Virus record (IMG/VR): IMGVR_UViG_3300020151_000971
Span: 1 to 27,548 of that record
Reading direction: 5' to 3' (one strand)
DNA from: a virus
Taxonomy: Duplodnaviria; Caudoviricetes
DNA: 27,548 nucleotides
Below, one piece after another: positions 7,054-16,523 of the stretch (position 1 is the first letter of the stretch; every line of letters starts with the position of its first letter). Under the pieces are notes generated by a model. It saw only the letters and a program-made list of their open reading frames with translations. It was not told where the DNA came from and searched no databases. A program made the position numbers and the translations under genes.

Positions 7054-8400
7054 TTAGACACTATACGTAAATTCACTGATAAGTCCCTTCTTAGAATCAT
7101 GAATATGAATCAGCGCAGAACGTGTGTTTCCAACAAATTTGTTGTGATAGTGGTAGTAATCAGAGGATGTTAAAGCAGGTATGATTCTGCTAACAAAACC
7201 ATTCTCTTCATTTTCAGTAATTATCTTGGTGGTTCTTCTTCCATGATAGTGTCCTGTGTAAAGCATTCTATATTCAGAAGATCCCCACTCTACAGGAAAT
7301 TCAATAGCATAAACCAAAGGGTTGTTCTTTGCTGTAACGTCACCATGTTCAAAACAAAGCATGTTAGTTCCATAAGTCAACACCTTTCTCTCAGCATAGT
7401 TTACGTTAAACTCAATTCCATCCCAACCTTTGAATGCTTGAGATACAGCATGAAGTAAGTGAAATGAACTCAACCTGTCATGATTACCTGGAATGAATAG
7501 AATCTCAAGGGTCTCACAAAACTGTTTAGCTGTACCAATTGCTTTACAGATTGCATCAAACGCTTTAATGTAAGCATCTGTTGCCATCTCTGAGTTCTCA
7601 ACAGGAGTTCCTTTTGTGGTAGTTCCACCAAACGTGTCCATATTAAGCGTATCTGGGCCCACTACAAAGACTATCTTCTCCAATACATAGTTCCTATGAG
7701 CTTTGTCAATTAAGTAGCTTACAGCGTCATTTAAGACCTCTCCCATGTCTTCATTGTTTACCTTACCAAAATGCAAGTCCTGCAATGAAAGAACCCCACA
7801 TACTTTTTCTTGAGAACTTGTGTTCTGCCAAAAAGCTGCAGGGTCTAGTGGAGTTATTTGTGGAATTTGGTAAGTCTCAAGAAGATCTAGAAAATTATGT
7901 TGTGTTTTTTCTTCTTGAGCTATTCTAGTAACAAGTGCTGATACCAACCACTTAGTGCCTTTCTCTTTATTCCAGTATTGAGAAAGTTTCCACTTCTTAG
8001 TGTCAATCTTTAGAAGAGCAATAATCTCTTCAGCACTGCGTGGTTCTGTAGAAGATACACCTGTAATTCTACTTGTGCCTGACTCTAAGTTTTCATGAAT
8101 CTCAATTCTTTTAGAATCTTCTTCTTTATTGTGGTATCTGTCTTTAAAGTCAATGTCTAATTCTTGCTCTAATTCAAATAAAATTTCTTCATTAGATTTT
8201 GATTTAGATTTTTTTGCTAAATTTGACTCAACCATTTGAATGATTACAGAATCTATTTTGGAACCTGCATCATTTAATACTTTAATAATTTCTTCTTTTA
8301 TTTTTTGATAATGAGCATTTGAAATACCAATTCTCAATGATTCAGCTTCTGCTGATTTCTTTCTTTTTAAACTATGATAAACTGCTTCTATAATGTTCAT
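7054..8400 (-). CDS. Calcineurin-like metallophosphoesterase with an N-terminal helical extension
   Basis: All five motifs present: DLHFG, GPDTLNMD (variant of GDxxD), IPGNHD, FEHGD, TGHYH. Confidence 0.85.
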   Translation of the reverse strand: MNIIEAVYHSLKRKKSAEAESLRIGISNAHYQKIKEEIIKVLNDAGSKIDSVIIQMVESNLAKKSKSKSNEEILFELEQELDIDFKDRYHNKEEDSKRIEIHENLESGTSRITGVSSTEPRSAEEIIALLKIDTKKWKLSQYWNKEKGTKWLVSALVTRIAQEEKTQHNFLDLLETYQIPQITPLDPAAFWQNTSSQEKVCGVLSLQDLHFGKVNNEDMGEVLNDAVSYLIDKAHRNYVLEKIVFVVGPDTLNMDTFGGTTTKGTPVENSEMATDAYIKAFDAICKAIGTAKQFCETLEILFIPGNHDRLSSFHLLHAVSQAFKGWDGIEFNVNYAERKVLTYGTNMLCFEHGDVTAKNNPLVYAIEFPVEWGSSEYRMLYTGHYHGRRTTKIITENEENGFVSRIIPALTSSDYYHYHNKFVGNTRSALIHIHDSKKGLISEFTYSV

Positions 8401-8477: not shown

Positions 8478-8508
8478 AAAAAGATACCCCCAGCTCTCGC
8501 CAGGGGCA
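8478..8508 (-). terminator. Intrinsic terminator ending the Cys-rich gene block
   Basis: Minus-strand TGCCCCTGGC-GAGA-GCTGGGGGTA followed by TCTTTTT; 10-bp stem with G-U pairs and a GNRA loop. Confidence 0.75.
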
Positions 8509-8519
8509 CTTCTCTAACA

Positions 8520-8553: not shown

Positions 8554-9321
8554 TTACAAAATTATATTGTCAACTGTGTTATTATGACCAACTACAGCAG
8601 CTCCACAAATGTCAGCTCCTGATGGATAGTAAGCTCCAGTTAAACAAGGATCCATTTGACCATATGTTTGACCTGCAAAAACAGTAATTCCAAAAGTTTG
8701 GGTAGATGGGGAATTACATCCTGCTCCTTTTTGTGTCCAGTATACTTCAACATCAAATGTTGTGTCAACTGTTACAGATTGAGCTAATGTCATACCTGCT
8801 CCCATATAATCATCAATTGTACCGCCCATGCAAGGTTGCATGTATCCACTAACTGATTCAACATTTACAGTTTTAGGTTCATCACAAGGACCGTTCATTG
8901 TAACTGTAACTTCACTACCTGGTACTACAGAATTTTCTTGAGCACATATTGTTGATGAATCATATCCTGAAGCTCCACCAATTGTAACTGTTTGGTCTAA
9001 ACCTTCACAATCTATATAAGATGATGTTTGGCCACTAGCGGATGATGTAGACAATGTATATGAAATACATGGTACTGGACAAGAAACTGCTTCAGCAATA
9101 ACTGCTACCTCAACACTTTCTGTTGATGAGTATATATCAGCTGGGCAAAGTGATGTTACATTAACATCATAATCAACACCACATTGAATATTCTCTGTAA
9201 TAACAACAGGAGATGATGACACTGTTATGCATGTAAATGCAACTTCAATAACTGGTTTATAACAAACTGTATAGTTTGTAATGCCAGGAATTGTTGTAAA
9301 GCTTATCGTTATTGTTGCCAT
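8554..9321 (-). CDS. Cys/Thr-rich putative fibre-tip protein with an N-terminal FN3-like domain lacking strand A
   Basis: 255 aa; N-terminus MATITISFTTIPGITNYTVCY...CGVDYDVNVTSLCP is paralogous to that of 9326..9862, followed by further small Cys-containing beta-domains. Confidence 0.65.
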   Translation of the reverse strand: MATITISFTTIPGITNYTVCYKPVIEVAFTCITVSSSPVVITENIQCGVDYDVNVTSLCPADIYSSTESVEVAVIAEAVSCPVPCISYTLSTSSASGQTSSYIDCEGLDQTVTIGGASGYDSSTICAQENSVVPGSEVTVTMNGPCDEPKTVNVESVSGYMQPCMGGTIDDYMGAGMTLAQSVTVDTTFDVEVYWTQKGAGCNSPSTQTFGITVFAGQTYGQMDPCLTGAYYPSGADICGAAVVGHNNTVDNIIL

Positions 9322-9325
9322 AATT

Positions 9326-9862
9326 TTAAATTAAAGGTGCGCAATCAGATGATGTGCCACAAGGGCCATTTGCTGTTACATTAATTTCAGGAATAAATTC
9401 AGCAACACCATCAACGCCATATCTAAATGTAGGAGTTTCTGTTGAGCATACAGCCACAGCAATTCCGCCACCTGTGTCAAAGTTTGGTATCATATTTATT
9501 GATACAAGCTGAATACCTTCAGTTGTGTTTCTATATCCAATATACAAATCTCTACCATCTCTCATAGCAGTTTCATACGGCATTTGAATTGTATAGCAAG
9601 TTCCGTCAGCAAGAGGTTCACATTCTAATGCCAAAGTTTGAACTGCAACAGGAGAACTTTCAAGTGAACCATATCCTTCGGGACAAAGCGTGGAAACAGT
9701 GACATCATATCTAATACCACAAGTAATCCCTACTGTAATAAGAACAGGTGAGCCTGTAACAGTAATACATGTTGGGGGATTTACTGAACCTGCTGGGTTA
9801 TAGCAAACTTTGTAGCTTGCTATACCCGCAACAGGAGTAAAATTTATTGATAATTCTGCCAT
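9326..9862 (-). CDS. Cys-rich putative fibre-tip protein with an N-terminal FN3-like domain lacking strand A
   Basis: 178 aa; MAELSINFTPVAGIASYKVCY...CGIRYDVTVSTLCP; clear paralogue of the downstream gene. Confidence 0.65.
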   Translation of the reverse strand: MAELSINFTPVAGIASYKVCYNPAGSVNPPTCITVTGSPVLITVGITCGIRYDVTVSTLCPEGYGSLESSPVAVQTLALECEPLADGTCYTIQMPYETAMRDGRDLYIGYRNTTEGIQLVSINMIPNFDTGGGIAVAVCSTETPTFRYGVDGVAEFIPEINVTANGPCGTSSDCAPLI

Positions 9863-9900
9863 AATGTGTTCAGATTATTTGATTTAATATTTACTTTACT

Positions 9901-10434
9901 CTATGACACATCTATTACTGATGCTGACAATCCTGTTGGTACTGGACATGTTGGAGCCTCTCCAATTGTTACTGAACCTCCACAAGGTATTGTTTCATCT
10001 CCTACAGAAATTGAAAAAGAATAGTTGTATGTTTGACCAAATTCACCATCAAATTGAACAGTAAATCCATCATTAGAAACATCATATGTACCAACTCCTT
10101 GTACTTCAACTGTTCCTGTATATGTTGCGTCTCCTGATAAACCTGGAAAGCTTAGTGTAACAAAATTTTCAGCAACTGTTTCCTCAACAGTTGGACAAAG
10201 TGGAACGCCTTTTGAAACATCTCCTGAATCAGTGGGACCACCATAGGTACAAATATTTACAATTTGATAAGTGTATAGTATGTTATTTACTGCAGTAGTA
10301 TCTGAGTAAGTAGACGCACTTGCACTTAATGAAGCAATGTCTGCAAAGGCTGAGCCTCCAGACTTTCTTTGAACCTTTTGTCCTGTGCTGTTTGCTCCAC
10401 CAGCAGGTGTCCATGATAAATTAATTGTTGCCAT
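9901..10434 (-). CDS. Two-domain FN3-like virion protein with an orphan C-terminal strand (putative fibre subunit)
   Basis: 177 aa; FN3 hallmarks INLSWTP, STYSDTT, LYTYQI; a second beta-sandwich; ends CPVPTGLSASVIDVS. Confidence 0.7.
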   Translation of the reverse strand: MATINLSWTPAGGANSTGQKVQRKSGGSAFADIASLSASASTYSDTTAVNNILYTYQIVNICTYGGPTDSGDVSKGVPLCPTVEETVAENFVTLSFPGLSGDATYTGTVEVQGVGTYDVSNDGFTVQFDGEFGQTYNYSFSISVGDETIPCGGSVTIGEAPTCPVPTGLSASVIDVS

Positions 10435-10465
10435 TTTGTTTTATTTTTTTTTAAGTTAAGTTAAG

Positions 10466-12133
10466 TTATTCTGAAATTGTTGCTATTAAATCTGTTGGTG
10501 GAGGACATGGTGGATTCTCACAGTCTCTGCTTTCGCTAAGTTCTGGACACGCAACACCTCCGCCAGAAGCTGGGGTAATCACTGTTCTAGTTCTTGTTTG
10601 AACACCTTCTACACACTCAGACCACTCAGACCAGTCTGATACAACACAATTAACTGGTGTTTCACAGTCTCTTGTTTCTATCAAATTTGGGCATGGTGTT
10701 CCACCATTAGCTGCTGGCGTAATAATTGTTCTTGTTCTAGTTTGAGTTCCTTCAAAACATGCTGACCATGCTGACCAACCAGAAACTACACAATCTGTAG
10801 GTTCAACAGGACATTCTGGTACTACATATGTATATGTTTGTTGAATCATCTCTTCGTTACATTCAATTCTTAAAGTTAAAGTAACAGATGTACCAGCAGG
10901 AACATTAACAGCATCCATTTGACCACCTCCAAACGGTGAGTTAAATGTCCAGAAAGAACTTGATGATGGTATTGTAGGACTAAATTGGTAAGTACTTTGA
11001 ATTAAAACTTCACTTGTTCCTGTTTTCTGAACATTCACAAATAAATCAGAACCTGTTGCCCATGTGGCAGATGAAGGTACTGTAATGCTATAGTTGTATC
11101 CAATTGAAGGACAATCCCAAGTTCCAAATGTTACCCATGATGGATCAATAGTACCACAGTCTGGAGGACAAGGAAGTACTGTAACACTTGTTGTTGTTTG
11201 TACATCACAGTCTATTGCGTTAAAAGATTTGTAAACTTTTATAAAGTATGTGCCTGCAGCTACTCCTGTAAATGTATGAGTATATGTTGAGCCTGTGCCT
11301 GTTACTATAAAATCGTGATATTGTAAAGGAATGGTAGGTGCAGTTGTGCTAACTAATTCTACAGTTAAACTTGTTGCTGCTCCTATAGTAGCATCATCAA
11401 ATGTTAACTCAATAGTTTCACAATCTACAGAGTCACTATAGAATTCTGTTACAGGTACACATTGTAAAACGCAAGATTCTGTTTGAATTAAAACTGGACA
11501 ACCTACTCCACCACATGATGCTGGTGTAATCACAGTCCTTGTTCTTGTTCTTGTTCCTCCATCATTGCATTCACTCCACTCACTCCATCCAGATACTACA
11601 CAATCAACAGGAGTGCAACCACATTCTCTAGTTTCAATCAATGTTGGACATGCTGTACCACCGCAAGAAGCAGGAGTTACAATTGTTCTTGTTCTTGTTT
11701 CCACACCTTCAATACAGGGTCCCCAGGCACTCCATGCAGAGACTACACAGTTTACTGGAGTACAGCATGATCTAGTTTCAATAAGAGGAGGACATGCGGT
11801 GCCACCATTTTGTGGTTGTTGTATTACAGTTCTTGTTCTAGTTTGAACACCATCAATACATGGACCCCAAGCACTCCATTCTGACACAACGCAGTTAATC
11901 ACTGGAGGTGTGCCATCACAACAATCACAAAGTCTTGCTGCAATAATTTGAATTACCTGATTAAGACTTGCTCCTGTTAAAATACCAAGACATGGAATTG
12001 CAGGACCTGTGTATCTAACACATGTGTCTAAAACTATTTCTTCGCATGGCTCACCCACACAATCTGGTGGTGGTGGAGCAGGAACACAGGGTTCTGGTTC
12101 GTTGCAAGGGTTACAATATTGATTAGGATACAT
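10466..12133 (-). CDS. Cys-rich virion fibre/decoration protein with five thrombospondin type-1 (spondin-type) repeats and Ig/FN3-like domains
   Basis: 555 aa; five copies of CVVSxWSxWxxC..G..TRTRT......GG..CP.L.[EQ]...C. N-terminal domain shared with 12149..13717. Confidence 0.85.
   Translation of the reverse strand: MYPNQYCNPCNEPEPCVPAPPPPDCVGEPCEEIVLDTCVRYTGPAIPCLGILTGASLNQVIQIIAARLCDCCDGTPPVINCVVSEWSAWGPCIDGVQTRTRTVIQQPQNGGTACPPLIETRSCCTPVNCVVSAWSAWGPCIEGVETRTRTIVTPASCGGTACPTLIETRECGCTPVDCVVSGWSEWSECNDGGTRTRTRTVITPASCGGVGCPVLIQTESCVLQCVPVTEFYSDSVDCETIELTFDDATIGAATSLTVELVSTTAPTIPLQYHDFIVTGTGSTYTHTFTGVAAGTYFIKVYKSFNAIDCDVQTTTSVTVLPCPPDCGTIDPSWVTFGTWDCPSIGYNYSITVPSSATWATGSDLFVNVQKTGTSEVLIQSTYQFSPTIPSSSSFWTFNSPFGGGQMDAVNVPAGTSVTLTLRIECNEEMIQQTYTYVVPECPVEPTDCVVSGWSAWSACFEGTQTRTRTIITPAANGGTPCPNLIETRDCETPVNCVVSDWSEWSECVEGVQTRTRTVITPASGGGVACPELSESRDCENPPCPPPTDLIATISE
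10520..10792 (-). repeat. TSP1-like repeats 4-5
   Basis: CVVSGWSAWSACFEGTQTRTRTIITPAANGGTPCPNLIETRDC and CVVSDWSEWSECVEGVQTRTRTVITPASGGGVACPELSESRDC. Confidence 0.85.
11471..11893 (-). repeat. TSP1-like repeats 1-3
   Basis: Three tandem ~47-49 aa units with WSxW and RTRT motifs; the DNA repeat 'ttcttgttc' (RTRT) recurs. Confidence 0.85.
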
Positions 12134-12148
12134 TTATATAAAATTTAT

Positions 12149-13717
12149 TTATGTTAAACATGTGATTTCTCCAGGACACGCCACAGCTCTATCGCCTGTA
12201 ATATCTTGGATGCAGTTGTAAATTTGTGTTTTTACTGTACAAGGATCTGAACCACACTTAACGTGTCTTTCAGAATAATAAATATGCTCAACTACTGAAA
12301 TACCAGTTCCAAAAGTTTTTGTAATAGTCTCTGATCCCATGGCAGCACAATCTCCTTCTACCTCATAATTTATTAAAACATTAAAAGGAGCGTAAGCATT
12401 TGCAACAGTTGCACTTGTTGAGTTATTTTTCAAAGTAAGAGTTGTTTTCCTACGTCTACTTGTATAACTATCTCCATCGCAGTTTTCTACAATGTCATCA
12501 TAACCGACATCCGTAACTTGAACACAATATACTACTCCAGTTAATGCAAGTTTTGCAATCAATGTTGCAACAGATGAATCTTCGCAACTGTACTCAGCAA
12601 TAATTTGAATACGATAATCTTTAGTAGGATCTGGAACAAGAGTTACATTATATGAATTTGTTCCAAAGGGCACATTCGCATTCAAAATTGCAGAACCTAC
12701 TATGGCACTTCCATTCCATTCAAAAGCTTGAATATTATATTGAATAGGATTTTCATTTGTGCCAACTGAAGGTGCTGTCCAATTGATTGTAGAACCTGAA
12801 ACTGATAAGTTTGTAAGTTGAATATTTGATACTGGTACTGGTACACATCCTGGTGTACTTGTTCCTGAGCAACATTCTTCAATAGCAGTTCTCATATCAC
12901 AAATTGTCAACCACATATTTGTTATGGTTTGTGATAATGTTGTTGGTGTTGCGACCCATCCAGGTAAATTAGACATTGTTTGTTCAGCATTTGAAAGCTG
13001 AGGTGCTGCATCTAAGTCTGTGCACTCTTTAGCAATTGCTGTAGATAGTGCTGCGTTAGTTCCAAGCAAACTTGTCAATTGACAAAACTTTCCTTCAAAT
13101 GCAGAAAATGCTTGACCAATTGGAACTACTGTCCCTGGTACAGGACTACTGGCACATTGAGATACAATTGAAATTGTAGTGCCTCCGCCTCCGCCACCTG
13201 TGTTATTTTCTAAAACAGTTACTCTGTTCTGTAAATTTGTAATTGATAATTTTATGCTTATAATTTCAGCTATTGCTTCACAAATTTTTGTTGCCAAATA
13301 CTGGCTATAAGCTGCTGGTAACAATGATGTAATTTCATCACCATCTTCTGTATAATACAAACATGGGGGTAATGAAATTGGTAATACTGTACCACCACCT
13401 CCAGAACCCTCATCACAACAATTATCTTCAAAATAACATTGCTTATCAATAATCAATTGCAATGCTTGAACAATTGTAGTAGGTTCAACAGCACCTGTAG
13501 GTACTAAACATTTGAAATCTAAAGTAGTAAGATCAATAACCCCAGAAGCTATCTCACATAACTTTATTGCTAACTCATAAACAACATCTGTAATTGAGTC
13601 TCCTTTGCAAAGTTCAATGCAAGGAATATCTGGACCTTGCCAGATCACACATGAAGAAGATATTTTTGAACATCCATCTTCAGGTTTTAGGTGTAAGTTG
13701 CTTCTTAATGGCTTCAT
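12149..13717 (-). CDS. Cys-rich fibre-like protein with a coiled coil, Gly linkers and a complete FN3-like domain
   Basis: 522 aa; N-terminal CVIWQGPDIPC domain; heptads IISIKLSITNLQNRVTVLEN; GSGGGG and GGGGGG linkers; FN3 'CVPVPVSNIQLTNLSVSGSTINWTAP...YRIQIIAEYSC'. Confidence 0.7.
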   Translation of the reverse strand: MKPLRSNLHLKPEDGCSKISSSCVIWQGPDIPCIELCKGDSITDVVYELAIKLCEIASGVIDLTTLDFKCLVPTGAVEPTTIVQALQLIIDKQCYFEDNCCDEGSGGGGTVLPISLPPCLYYTEDGDEITSLLPAAYSQYLATKICEAIAEIISIKLSITNLQNRVTVLENNTGGGGGGTTISIVSQCASSPVPGTVVPIGQAFSAFEGKFCQLTSLLGTNAALSTAIAKECTDLDAAPQLSNAEQTMSNLPGWVATPTTLSQTITNMWLTICDMRTAIEECCSGTSTPGCVPVPVSNIQLTNLSVSGSTINWTAPSVGTNENPIQYNIQAFEWNGSAIVGSAILNANVPFGTNSYNVTLVPDPTKDYRIQIIAEYSCEDSSVATLIAKLALTGVVYCVQVTDVGYDDIVENCDGDSYTSRRRKTTLTLKNNSTSATVANAYAPFNVLINYEVEGDCAAMGSETITKTFGTGISVVEHIYYSERHVKCGSDPCTVKTQIYNCIQDITGDRAVACPGEITCLT

Positions 13718-16067: not shown

Positions 16068-16523
16068 TTATTGTAAGAATAAAAGTTTATACTTTGCAGC
16101 ATTCAGTTTACTCTTAACATTGTCAAGGTCATTTACAACTTCAGAATAAGGAACTTTACCTTGTAGCTCTGTTATCATTAATGACATCTCTCGTATATAA
16201 GATACAGCTTCTTCTTTAGAATACAAACTTTTTGGTAAAATATCTGCACATTTAATAAGTTTTTCGCATGCACCTTGATATCCTTCAGCAATTGAATCAA
16301 TCAGAGCTGGTAATTCTTCATACAATTCGCCCAAAGCAACATGTACTGCATAAGAACCTTCTCCTGTAATCTTCAAGTGAAGCTTGTGAAAGGTTGTAAC
16401 TGAGTTCATTAATTCAGTTATACACTGACCCACAAGCATATCTGTCATGTCTGATTCTGATGAATCATAACTACCAGATGCCATCTTGGATTTTTTAAGC
16501 TTGTATACTTCTTCAAACTCCAT
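16068..16523 (-). CDS. Ferritin/Dps-like four-helix protein (DUF5856-like)
   Basis: 151 aa; 'FHKLHLKITGEGSYAVHVALGELYEELPALIDSIAEGYQG' resembles the Dps H-W-x3-G..F..LH...E.Y......D..AER signature; ends KYKLLFL. Confidence 0.7.
   Translation of the reverse strand: MEFEEVYKLKKSKMASGSYDSSESDMTDMLVGQCITELMNSVTTFHKLHLKITGEGSYAVHVALGELYEELPALIDSIAEGYQGACEKLIKCADILPKSLYSKEEAVSYIREMSLMITELQGKVPYSEVVNDLDNVKSKLNAAKYKLLFLQ

What the first reader, a model, noticed from the sequence alone, without database searches (positions are those of the whole stretch)
8554..10507. Split FN3 domains across four genes: candidate pilus-like phage fibre built by donor-strand complementation and locked by disulfides
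Seen: the 555-aa protein ends CPPPTDLIATISE (10507-10469) and the 177-aa protein ends CPVPTGLSASVIDVS (9948-9904). Both look like isolated FN3 A-strands (C-P-x-P-T-x-L). The 177, 178 and 255-aa proteins start directly at an FN3 B-strand (MATINLSWTP, MAELSINFTP, MATITISFTT) and carry a Cys at the end of strand F (YQIVNIC, YDVTVSTLC, YDVNVTSLC). The intact FN3 in the 522-aa protein has both parts in cis (CVPVPVSNIQL..STINWTAP..YRIQIIAEYSC). The 177-aa protein has four Cys: two bracket its complete second domain, leaving one in the acceptor domain and one in the donor tail. Known: strand complementation builds chaperone-usher and type V pili. Inference: 555 aa is a donor-only anchor, 177 aa an acceptor+donor subunit able to self-polymerise, and 178/255 aa are alternative acceptor-only caps, with each joint closed by an inter-subunit disulfide. 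I know of no description of such a phage appendage.
Basis: partly seen in the sequence, partly recalled or inferred. Interest (0 to 1): 0.88.

Follow-up and report, generated by a model that had tools for sequence, protein, structure and literature searches.

The report
Split-FN3 chain-link phage fibre
In this uncultured crAss-like phage, four neighbouring fibre genes are cut between the first and second strands of a small fibronectin-type domain, so the 12-residue tail of one protein most likely slots into the head of another and a cysteine pair likely locks the joint, which would build an anchor-linker-tip appendage from separate proteins, although neither binding nor fibre length has been measured.

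Summary
Observation confirmed. The window is a Crassvirales-like phage. AlphaFold2 gives the 177-aa protein a six-stranded first FN3 domain without strand A, a complete second domain and an unpaired tail (pLDDT 95.5). Among 35 distinct related loci, 14 have both tail donors and strand-A-less acceptors, 21 have neither, and none has only one kind. Relatives carry the same joint as an intact FN3, with both cysteines, inside one chain. Caps tend to an odd cysteine count (36 of 47) and linkers to an even one (19 of 21). Junctions fall in all three frames, so readthrough does not join them. Trans strand complementation with a disulfide is therefore likely (about 0.88). Self-polymerisation into a pilus is open (about 0.3): the linker is optional, some relatives use up to three distinct linkers in series, and 9 of 14 loci balance donors with acceptors. 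A partial phage precedent exists (Tuc2009 BppU-BppA). This scan noted the same system earlier in other genomes.

The parts
10466..12133 (-). 555-aa anchor/stalk: Cys-rich N-terminal domain shared with the 522-aa protein, five TSP1 repeats, two internal beta-rich modules (FN3/Ig-like by pattern, not folded here), C-terminal donor strand
   Evidence: N-terminal domain homologous to three Lbo-JY46 proteins, one annotated tail fiber protein
10469..10507 (-). Donor tail 1 (FN3 strand A with Cys543): CPPPTDLIATISE
   Evidence: sequence; register against tandem FN3 arrays; the orthologous tail is present in loci that have acceptors and absent in those without
9901..10434 (-). 177-aa linker: acceptor FN3 lacking strand A (residues 1-77, Cys62), complete FN3 (80-157, Cys80 and Cys151), donor tail
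   Evidence: AF2 model pLDDT 95.5; Foldseek top hits are tandem FN3; conservation
9904..9948 (-). Donor tail 2 (strand A with Cys163): CPVPTGLSASVIDVS
   Evidence: C163 and P161 invariant; no strand pairing in the monomer model
9326..9862 (-). 178-aa cap: acceptor FN3 lacking strand A (Cys60) plus one distal module; 9 Cys (odd)
   Evidence: distal module fused to the anchor in L051 (42% over residues 82-178); acceptor homologous to intact FN3 domains inside the L107 and L088 anchors
8554..9321 (-). 255-aa cap: acceptor FN3 lacking strand A (Cys59) plus two distal beta-rich modules; 13 Cys (odd)
   Evidence: AF2 model with six strands in the first domain, pLDDT 82; alignment; no significant structural match
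12149..13717 (-). 522-aa paralogous fibre: Cys-rich N-terminus with a coiled-coil-like segment, intact FN3 with both Cys in cis (C291, C378), no donor tail here; orthologues in other clades end in a donor tail
8484..8509 (-). Terminator-like hairpin just after the last cap gene (pattern match only)

Best explanation
These four genes encode pieces of what is most likely a virion fibre whose FN3 domains are split between strand A and strand B, so the 12-13-residue C-terminal tail of one protein is predicted to complete the strand-A-less first domain of another, and the tail Cys would likely form a disulfide with the Cys at the end of the acceptor's strand F. Shown from sequence and models: the split point, the missing strand, the free tail, the cysteine positions and the strict co-occurrence of donors and acceptors. 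Inferred: the 555-aa protein docks on the virion by its N-terminus and offers a tail; the 177-aa linker takes that tail and offers a new one about two domains further out; the 178- or 255-aa protein ends the chain and presents a variable distal module, probably for adhesion. Because acceptors outnumber donors, tips would be mixed on one virion, and an anchor may also take a cap directly. The disulfides would form on oxidation after lysis. The chain is most likely short (none, one or a few linkers) and arose by fission of multi-FN3 fibre genes at the A-B loop. Odds: trans joint about 0.88; short chain rather than long polymer about 2 to 1.
For: AF2: 177-aa domain 1 has six strands starting at residue 2, domain 2 has seven, and the tail 157-177 forms no strand; the 255-aa domain 1 has six strands. 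Pfam fn3 hits on 4 of 15 related acceptors tested begin at model position 15-16 of 84 at residue 3-4. The linker profile matches long tandem FN3 arrays over nearly its whole length in the register B-G, A-G, A (27 stretches printed). Co-occurrence in 35 loci below 80% anchor identity: 14 both, 21 neither, 0 mixed. 80 of 97 distinct donor-ended gene pairs are followed directly by an acceptor, and 14 more have one after a single intervening gene. Fused counterparts: the L107 and L088 anchors hold the cap-type FN3 intact with both Cys, L051 fuses anchor and cap modules and has no donor or acceptor, and the L006 407+222 pair corresponds to the L023 581-aa protein. 16 of 21 internal FN3 hits carry both Cys patterns (loose regex). 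Cys parity: caps odd 36 of 47 against background 255 of 487 (p 0.002); linkers even 19 of 21. For a short chain: linker absent in L052-L054, L101, L106 and L124; three different linkers in series in L015/L108; donors equal acceptors in 9 of 14 loci. Inter-subunit disulfides are established in crAss001 virions (PMC10172136, passages).
Against: No binding, disulfide or virion location has been measured or modelled. Loci are related, so the counts are not independent, and the donor and acceptor definitions were tuned after seeing data: the first strict regex gave only 21 of 31 adjacencies on the second locus set. 11 of 47 caps have an even Cys count. No homology was found between the anchor N-termini and the crAss001 fibre or hub proteins, so the docking site is unknown. 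Tails that precede linkers and tails that precede caps show no clear class signature, so nothing obvious stops the linker from binding itself.
Confidence: 0.58

Rival explanations
1. Same joint, but the 177-aa linker self-polymerises into a long pilus-like filament that starts on the anchor and is ended by whichever cap binds.
For: The linker has both halves in head-to-tail geometry. Anchor-type tails precede linker acceptors in some genomes and cap acceptors in others, so the joints look interchangeable. Anchor and linker tails of one genome are more alike than shuffled pairs (2.31 against 1.80, p 0.002, 9 representatives; p 0.08 before two mis-called tails were corrected; shared ancestry confounds both). 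The four-Cys linker architecture is kept in distant clades (L109, L128).
Against: The linker is dispensable; paralogous linkers in series and a DFNY-type extension on donors that precede one cap class (L006, L015) suggest ordered, specific joints. No chaperone, protease site or self-complemented storage form is evident that would control polymerisation in the cytoplasm (inference).
Confidence: 0.3
2. The 177-aa tail folds back into its own first domain (circular permutation or a closed dimer); only anchor and caps pair in trans.
For: Anchor-to-cap pairs without a linker exist, so the linker is not needed for that joint.
Against: The AF2 monomer leaves the tail unpaired (best model). Only about 7 residues separate the end of domain 2 from Cys163, while Cys62 would lie about two domains away (geometry inferred from FN3 topology, not measured on coordinates). 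The linker gene sits between a donor gene and an acceptor gene in the minimal cassettes.
Confidence: 0.05
3. The genes are translated into one chain by readthrough or frameshifting, so the domains are whole in cis.
For: 21 of 57 distinct junction sequences are in frame, a few with 3-6-nt spacers.
Against: 36 of 57 are out of frame, 14 of the 21 in-frame spacers hold a second stop, spacers range from -1 to 85 nt and 51 of 57 stops are TAA. Both window junctions are out of frame.
Confidence: 0.02
4. The split is a harmless relic of gene decay, or the complex is not a virion part.
For: No cultured phage carries it (no match in 50,697 records); no proteomics exist.
Against: Invariant tail Cys and fixed tail length (42 of 57 are 12-13 residues); the splits recur on two different anchor families (27 and 18 distinct ORFs); the cassette lies among capsid and tail-ring genes.
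Confidence: 0.05

Closest known systems
Lactococcus phage Tuc2009 baseplate tripod, BppU-BppA (PMC4742702, passages read)
   Same: A C-terminal extension of one virion protein completes a beta-sheet of a titin-like beta-sandwich in a separately encoded accessory adhesin.
   Different: There the donor is a 25-residue hairpin, the acceptor domain is C-terminal, it is one joint with no linker subunit, and the passages read mention no disulfide lock. Here the donor is a single strand A, the acceptor is N-terminal, joints are chained and carry a conserved Cys pair.
Type V pili of Bacteroidia, FimA and Mfa1-5 (PMC13655056, abstract and Introduction read)
   Same: C-terminal donor strand; anchor, stalk and tip roles; tip subunits lack a donor.
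   Different: Type V pilins are lipoproteins with two transthyretin-like domains that polymerise by protease-triggered exchange from a self-complemented state. These phage proteins are FN3-fold, show no signal or lipidation sequence by inspection, and polymerisation is unproven.
Chaperone-usher pili and the CPR Pam pilus (PMC13278184, passages read; CU details partly recalled)
   Same: A truncated Ig-like domain is completed by a neighbour's strand; a donor-less tip subunit.
   Different: They need chaperones and export; the disulfides named in the passages are intramolecular. No chaperone gene is evident in this cassette.
crAss001 head and tail fibres (PMC10172136, passages read)
   Same: Same phage order; disulfide-stabilised virion; multi-gene tail fibres whose distal assembly was not resolved.
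   Different: No sequence match between these proteins and gp21-gp26, gp29, gp38 or gp39.

Membership tests
Crassvirales-like phage | crAss-type major capsid, ring proteins, portal and terminase | tested here: met
   PF23898, PF24228, PF25702; portal and terminase PHROGs
FN3 domain | Seven-stranded A-B-C-C'-E-F-G sandwich | tested here: met
   Domain 2 of the 177-aa protein has seven strands; domain 1 has six and lacks A; Foldseek top hits are fibronectin FN3 pairs, E 1e-4
Donor-strand complementation (principle) | Acceptor domain lacks one strand | tested here: met
Donor-strand complementation (principle) | A separate subunit carries the missing strand as a free terminal extension | tested here: met
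Donor-strand complementation (principle) | The strand inserts in trans | tested here: inconclusive
Pilus (type V or chaperone-usher) | Major subunit homopolymerises into a long filament | not testable with these tools
   Indirect evidence is mixed
Type V pili | Lipoprotein signal and lipidated N-terminal Cys | tested here: not met
   The proteins start directly at strand B with no N-terminal signal or Cys (by inspection, no signal-peptide predictor run)
Type V pili | Two transthyretin-like domains | tested here: not met
   The fold is tandem FN3
Type V pili | Protease-triggered strand exchange | not testable with these tools
   No self-complemented form in the model
Chaperone-usher pili | N-terminal donor extension with chaperone and usher genes | tested here: not met
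   The donor is C-terminal; no chaperone or usher family hit among 25 window proteins

The most novel reading that the evidence does not exclude
A virus builds a chaperone-free, disulfide-locked, pilus-like filament: the 177-aa protein polymerises head to tail from a virion anchor, and competing caps set both length and tip specificity, giving one virion a mixed set of adhesins on variable-length stalks.
Probability: 0.3. Interest if true: 0.9.

Novelty: new variant of a known kind. Interest (0 to 1): 0.74.

Why it matters
If the joint is real, a large family of aquatic crAss-like phages (517 viral contigs encode the anchor family; 14 of 35 sampled distinct loci use the split) mounts and swaps fibre tips through a 12-residue peptide rather than by recombination inside a fibre gene. 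That would be a new route to mixed adhesins on one virion and to fast tip exchange. It would also be a natural, genetically encoded covalent peptide-domain connector, redox-locked rather than isopeptide-locked, useful for protein engineering. The fused and split states coexist in close relatives, which makes the origin of donor-strand assembly by gene fission directly testable.

Full report
Context. The window is the structural region of a Crassvirales-like phage on the minus strand: terminase, portal, crAss-type major capsid protein, two ring proteins and a 1413-aa structural protein cut by the window edge. The four genes lie between the capsid genes and ring genes, right after the 522-aa gene. 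Close strains occur in lake and freshwater metagenomes. No cultured phage matches the 177- or 522-aa proteins; the best capsid match is Lbo-JY46 at 27%, so the host is unknown.

Observation. The 555 and 522-aa proteins share an N-terminal Cys-rich domain (hhalign probability 96.5%). It matches three Lbo-JY46 proteins, one annotated as tail fiber, and no crAss001 fibre. Fibre identity is therefore an inference from domain content, gene position and that one annotation.

The split is at the A-B loop. AlphaFold2 with 34 homologues gives the 177-aa protein mean pLDDT 95.5, six strands in domain 1 starting at residue 2, seven in domain 2, and no strand in residues 157-177. Foldseek's best hits are tandem fibronectin FN3 pairs. 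The 255-aa first domain also has six strands. Where Pfam fn3 hits the N-terminus of related acceptors, it starts at model position 15-16 of 84 at residue 3-4 (4 of 15 proteins tested; a fifth starts later and the rest had no N-terminal hit). The linker profile matches long tandem-FN3 proteins across nearly its whole length, and in the 27 stretches printed the residues before and after the match are the missing strand A and the next strand B. The linker is thus a two-repeat piece of a tandem array cut one strand out of phase.

Donors and acceptors travel together. In the first locus set all 55 distinct donor-ended gene pairs were followed by an acceptor, but that regex was written after seeing the data. 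On 80 loci selected by the 522-type anchor, the same regex gave 21 of 31. With an HMM for acceptors and a corrected donor rule, 80 of 97 pairs over all loci are adjacent and 14 more have one intervening gene. After removing 9 loci without a recognised complete anchor, 11 with short flanks and 25 redundant ones, 35 remain: 14 have both donors and orphan acceptors, 21 have neither, none has one kind only. The loci are related, so this is a pattern, not a p-value. Donors never outnumber acceptors. The smallest cassette is a 91-aa anchor with a tail, a 182-aa linker and an 81-aa lone strand-A-less FN3 (L001).

Fused forms show what the joint rebuilds. The anchors of L107 and L088 contain an intact FN3 homologous to the window's 178-aa acceptor (40% and 31%), preceded in cis by a Cys-x-x-Pro strand A and carrying the strand-F Cys. 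L051, the closest relative by the 522-type anchor, has a 586-aa protein that fuses the anchor to distal modules of both caps and has no donor or acceptor gene. The L006 407-aa donor and 222-aa cap together cover the 581-aa protein of L023 (E 4e-79 and 6e-8). Readthrough does not explain the split forms: of 57 junction sequences 36 are out of frame, and 14 of the 21 in-frame spacers hold a second stop.

The disulfide. In intact FN3 domains of these phages, 16 of 21 internal hits carry both the strand-A and strand-F Cys patterns (loose patterns). In the linker, C62 and C163 are invariant. By FN3 topology C80 and C151 lie at the same pole and can pair, leaving C62 and C163 free (inference). Caps have an odd Cys count in 36 of 47 representatives, against 255 of 487 background ORFs (p 0.002), and linkers an even count in 19 of 21, as expected if each open end keeps one free Cys. 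Inter-subunit disulfides are known in the crAss001 virion (PMC10172136, passages). The bond itself is predicted, not shown.

Chain or polymer. For a short ordered chain: the linker is missing in L052-L054, L101, L106 and L124, where the anchor pairs with a cap; L015/L108 has three different linkers in series; donors before one cap class carry an extra DFNY-type motif; 9 of 14 loci have equal numbers of donors and acceptors. For a polymer: tails show no class signature, anchor-type tails serve both acceptor classes, and tails within one genome resemble each other (p 0.002 on 9 representatives after correction, p 0.08 before; confounded by ancestry). The window itself has three acceptors for two donors, so at least one tail must fit two grooves. 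I put the short chain at about twice the odds of a long polymer.

Comparison with what is known. It works like donor-strand complementation in pili but is not a member of the type V or chaperone-usher families: the fold, the export signals and the helper genes differ (PMC13655056 abstract and Introduction; PMC13278184 passages). The nearest phage case is Tuc2009, where a 25-residue BppU hairpin completes a titin-like domain of BppA (PMC4742702 passages). I found no paper describing chained, strand-A, cysteine-locked FN3 joints in phage fibres: full-text searches returned 0, 0, 0 and 3 papers (the three unrelated by title and abstract start), and searches pairing crAss-like phages or phage metagenomes with thrombospondin or fibronectin gave nothing relevant by listing. 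The library lacks most subscription papers, and I read no supplements. Earlier unchecked notes of this scan describe the same system in other genomes; they gave me two paper leads and are not independent support.

Verdict. A real, conserved feature. A trans joint is likely (about 0.88); a pilus-like polymer is possible (about 0.3). New variant of a known assembly principle, in a setting where I found only a partial precedent. Interest 0.74.

Noticed in passing
I found no paper on TSP1 repeats in such phages.
   Followed up: partly
window 10788-11155 and 11508-11807: Close strains differ by whole modules in the anchor: a 366-nt skip (in frame by length) and 144-nt repeat changes in assembled contigs, so stalk length varies among near-identical phages.
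   Followed up: partly
window 16068-16523: Dps/ferritin-like gene (DUF5856, phrog_858) inside the structural module.
   Followed up: no
L109:10483, L097:6842, L118:10494 and relatives: One class of 142-166-aa acceptor-like proteins has an extra Cys just before strand B that might pair with its own strand-F Cys, so these may be self-closed rather than true acceptors; they inflate the acceptor excess in that clade.
   Followed up: no
L006:10001, L015:9977: In this clade the first linker has no donor gene directly upstream; the only donor-only gene is the 406/407-aa anchor downstream, so one tail would have to serve two acceptors or the linker would bind itself.
   Followed up: partly
L006:10577-10888, L015:11198-11890: Donors that precede the 335/391-aa cap class carry a (T/V)DFNY extension after strand A, a candidate specificity tag.
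   Followed up: no
L132:20800-25727 (Lbo-JY46): A cultured phage has three genes with the same Cys-rich anchor N-terminus but no acceptor-domain match among the 15 genes compared; it could show where this domain docks on the virion.
   Followed up: partly
window 7054-8400: A 448-aa exonuclease/phosphoesterase-like gene follows the cassette in most relatives.
   Followed up: no
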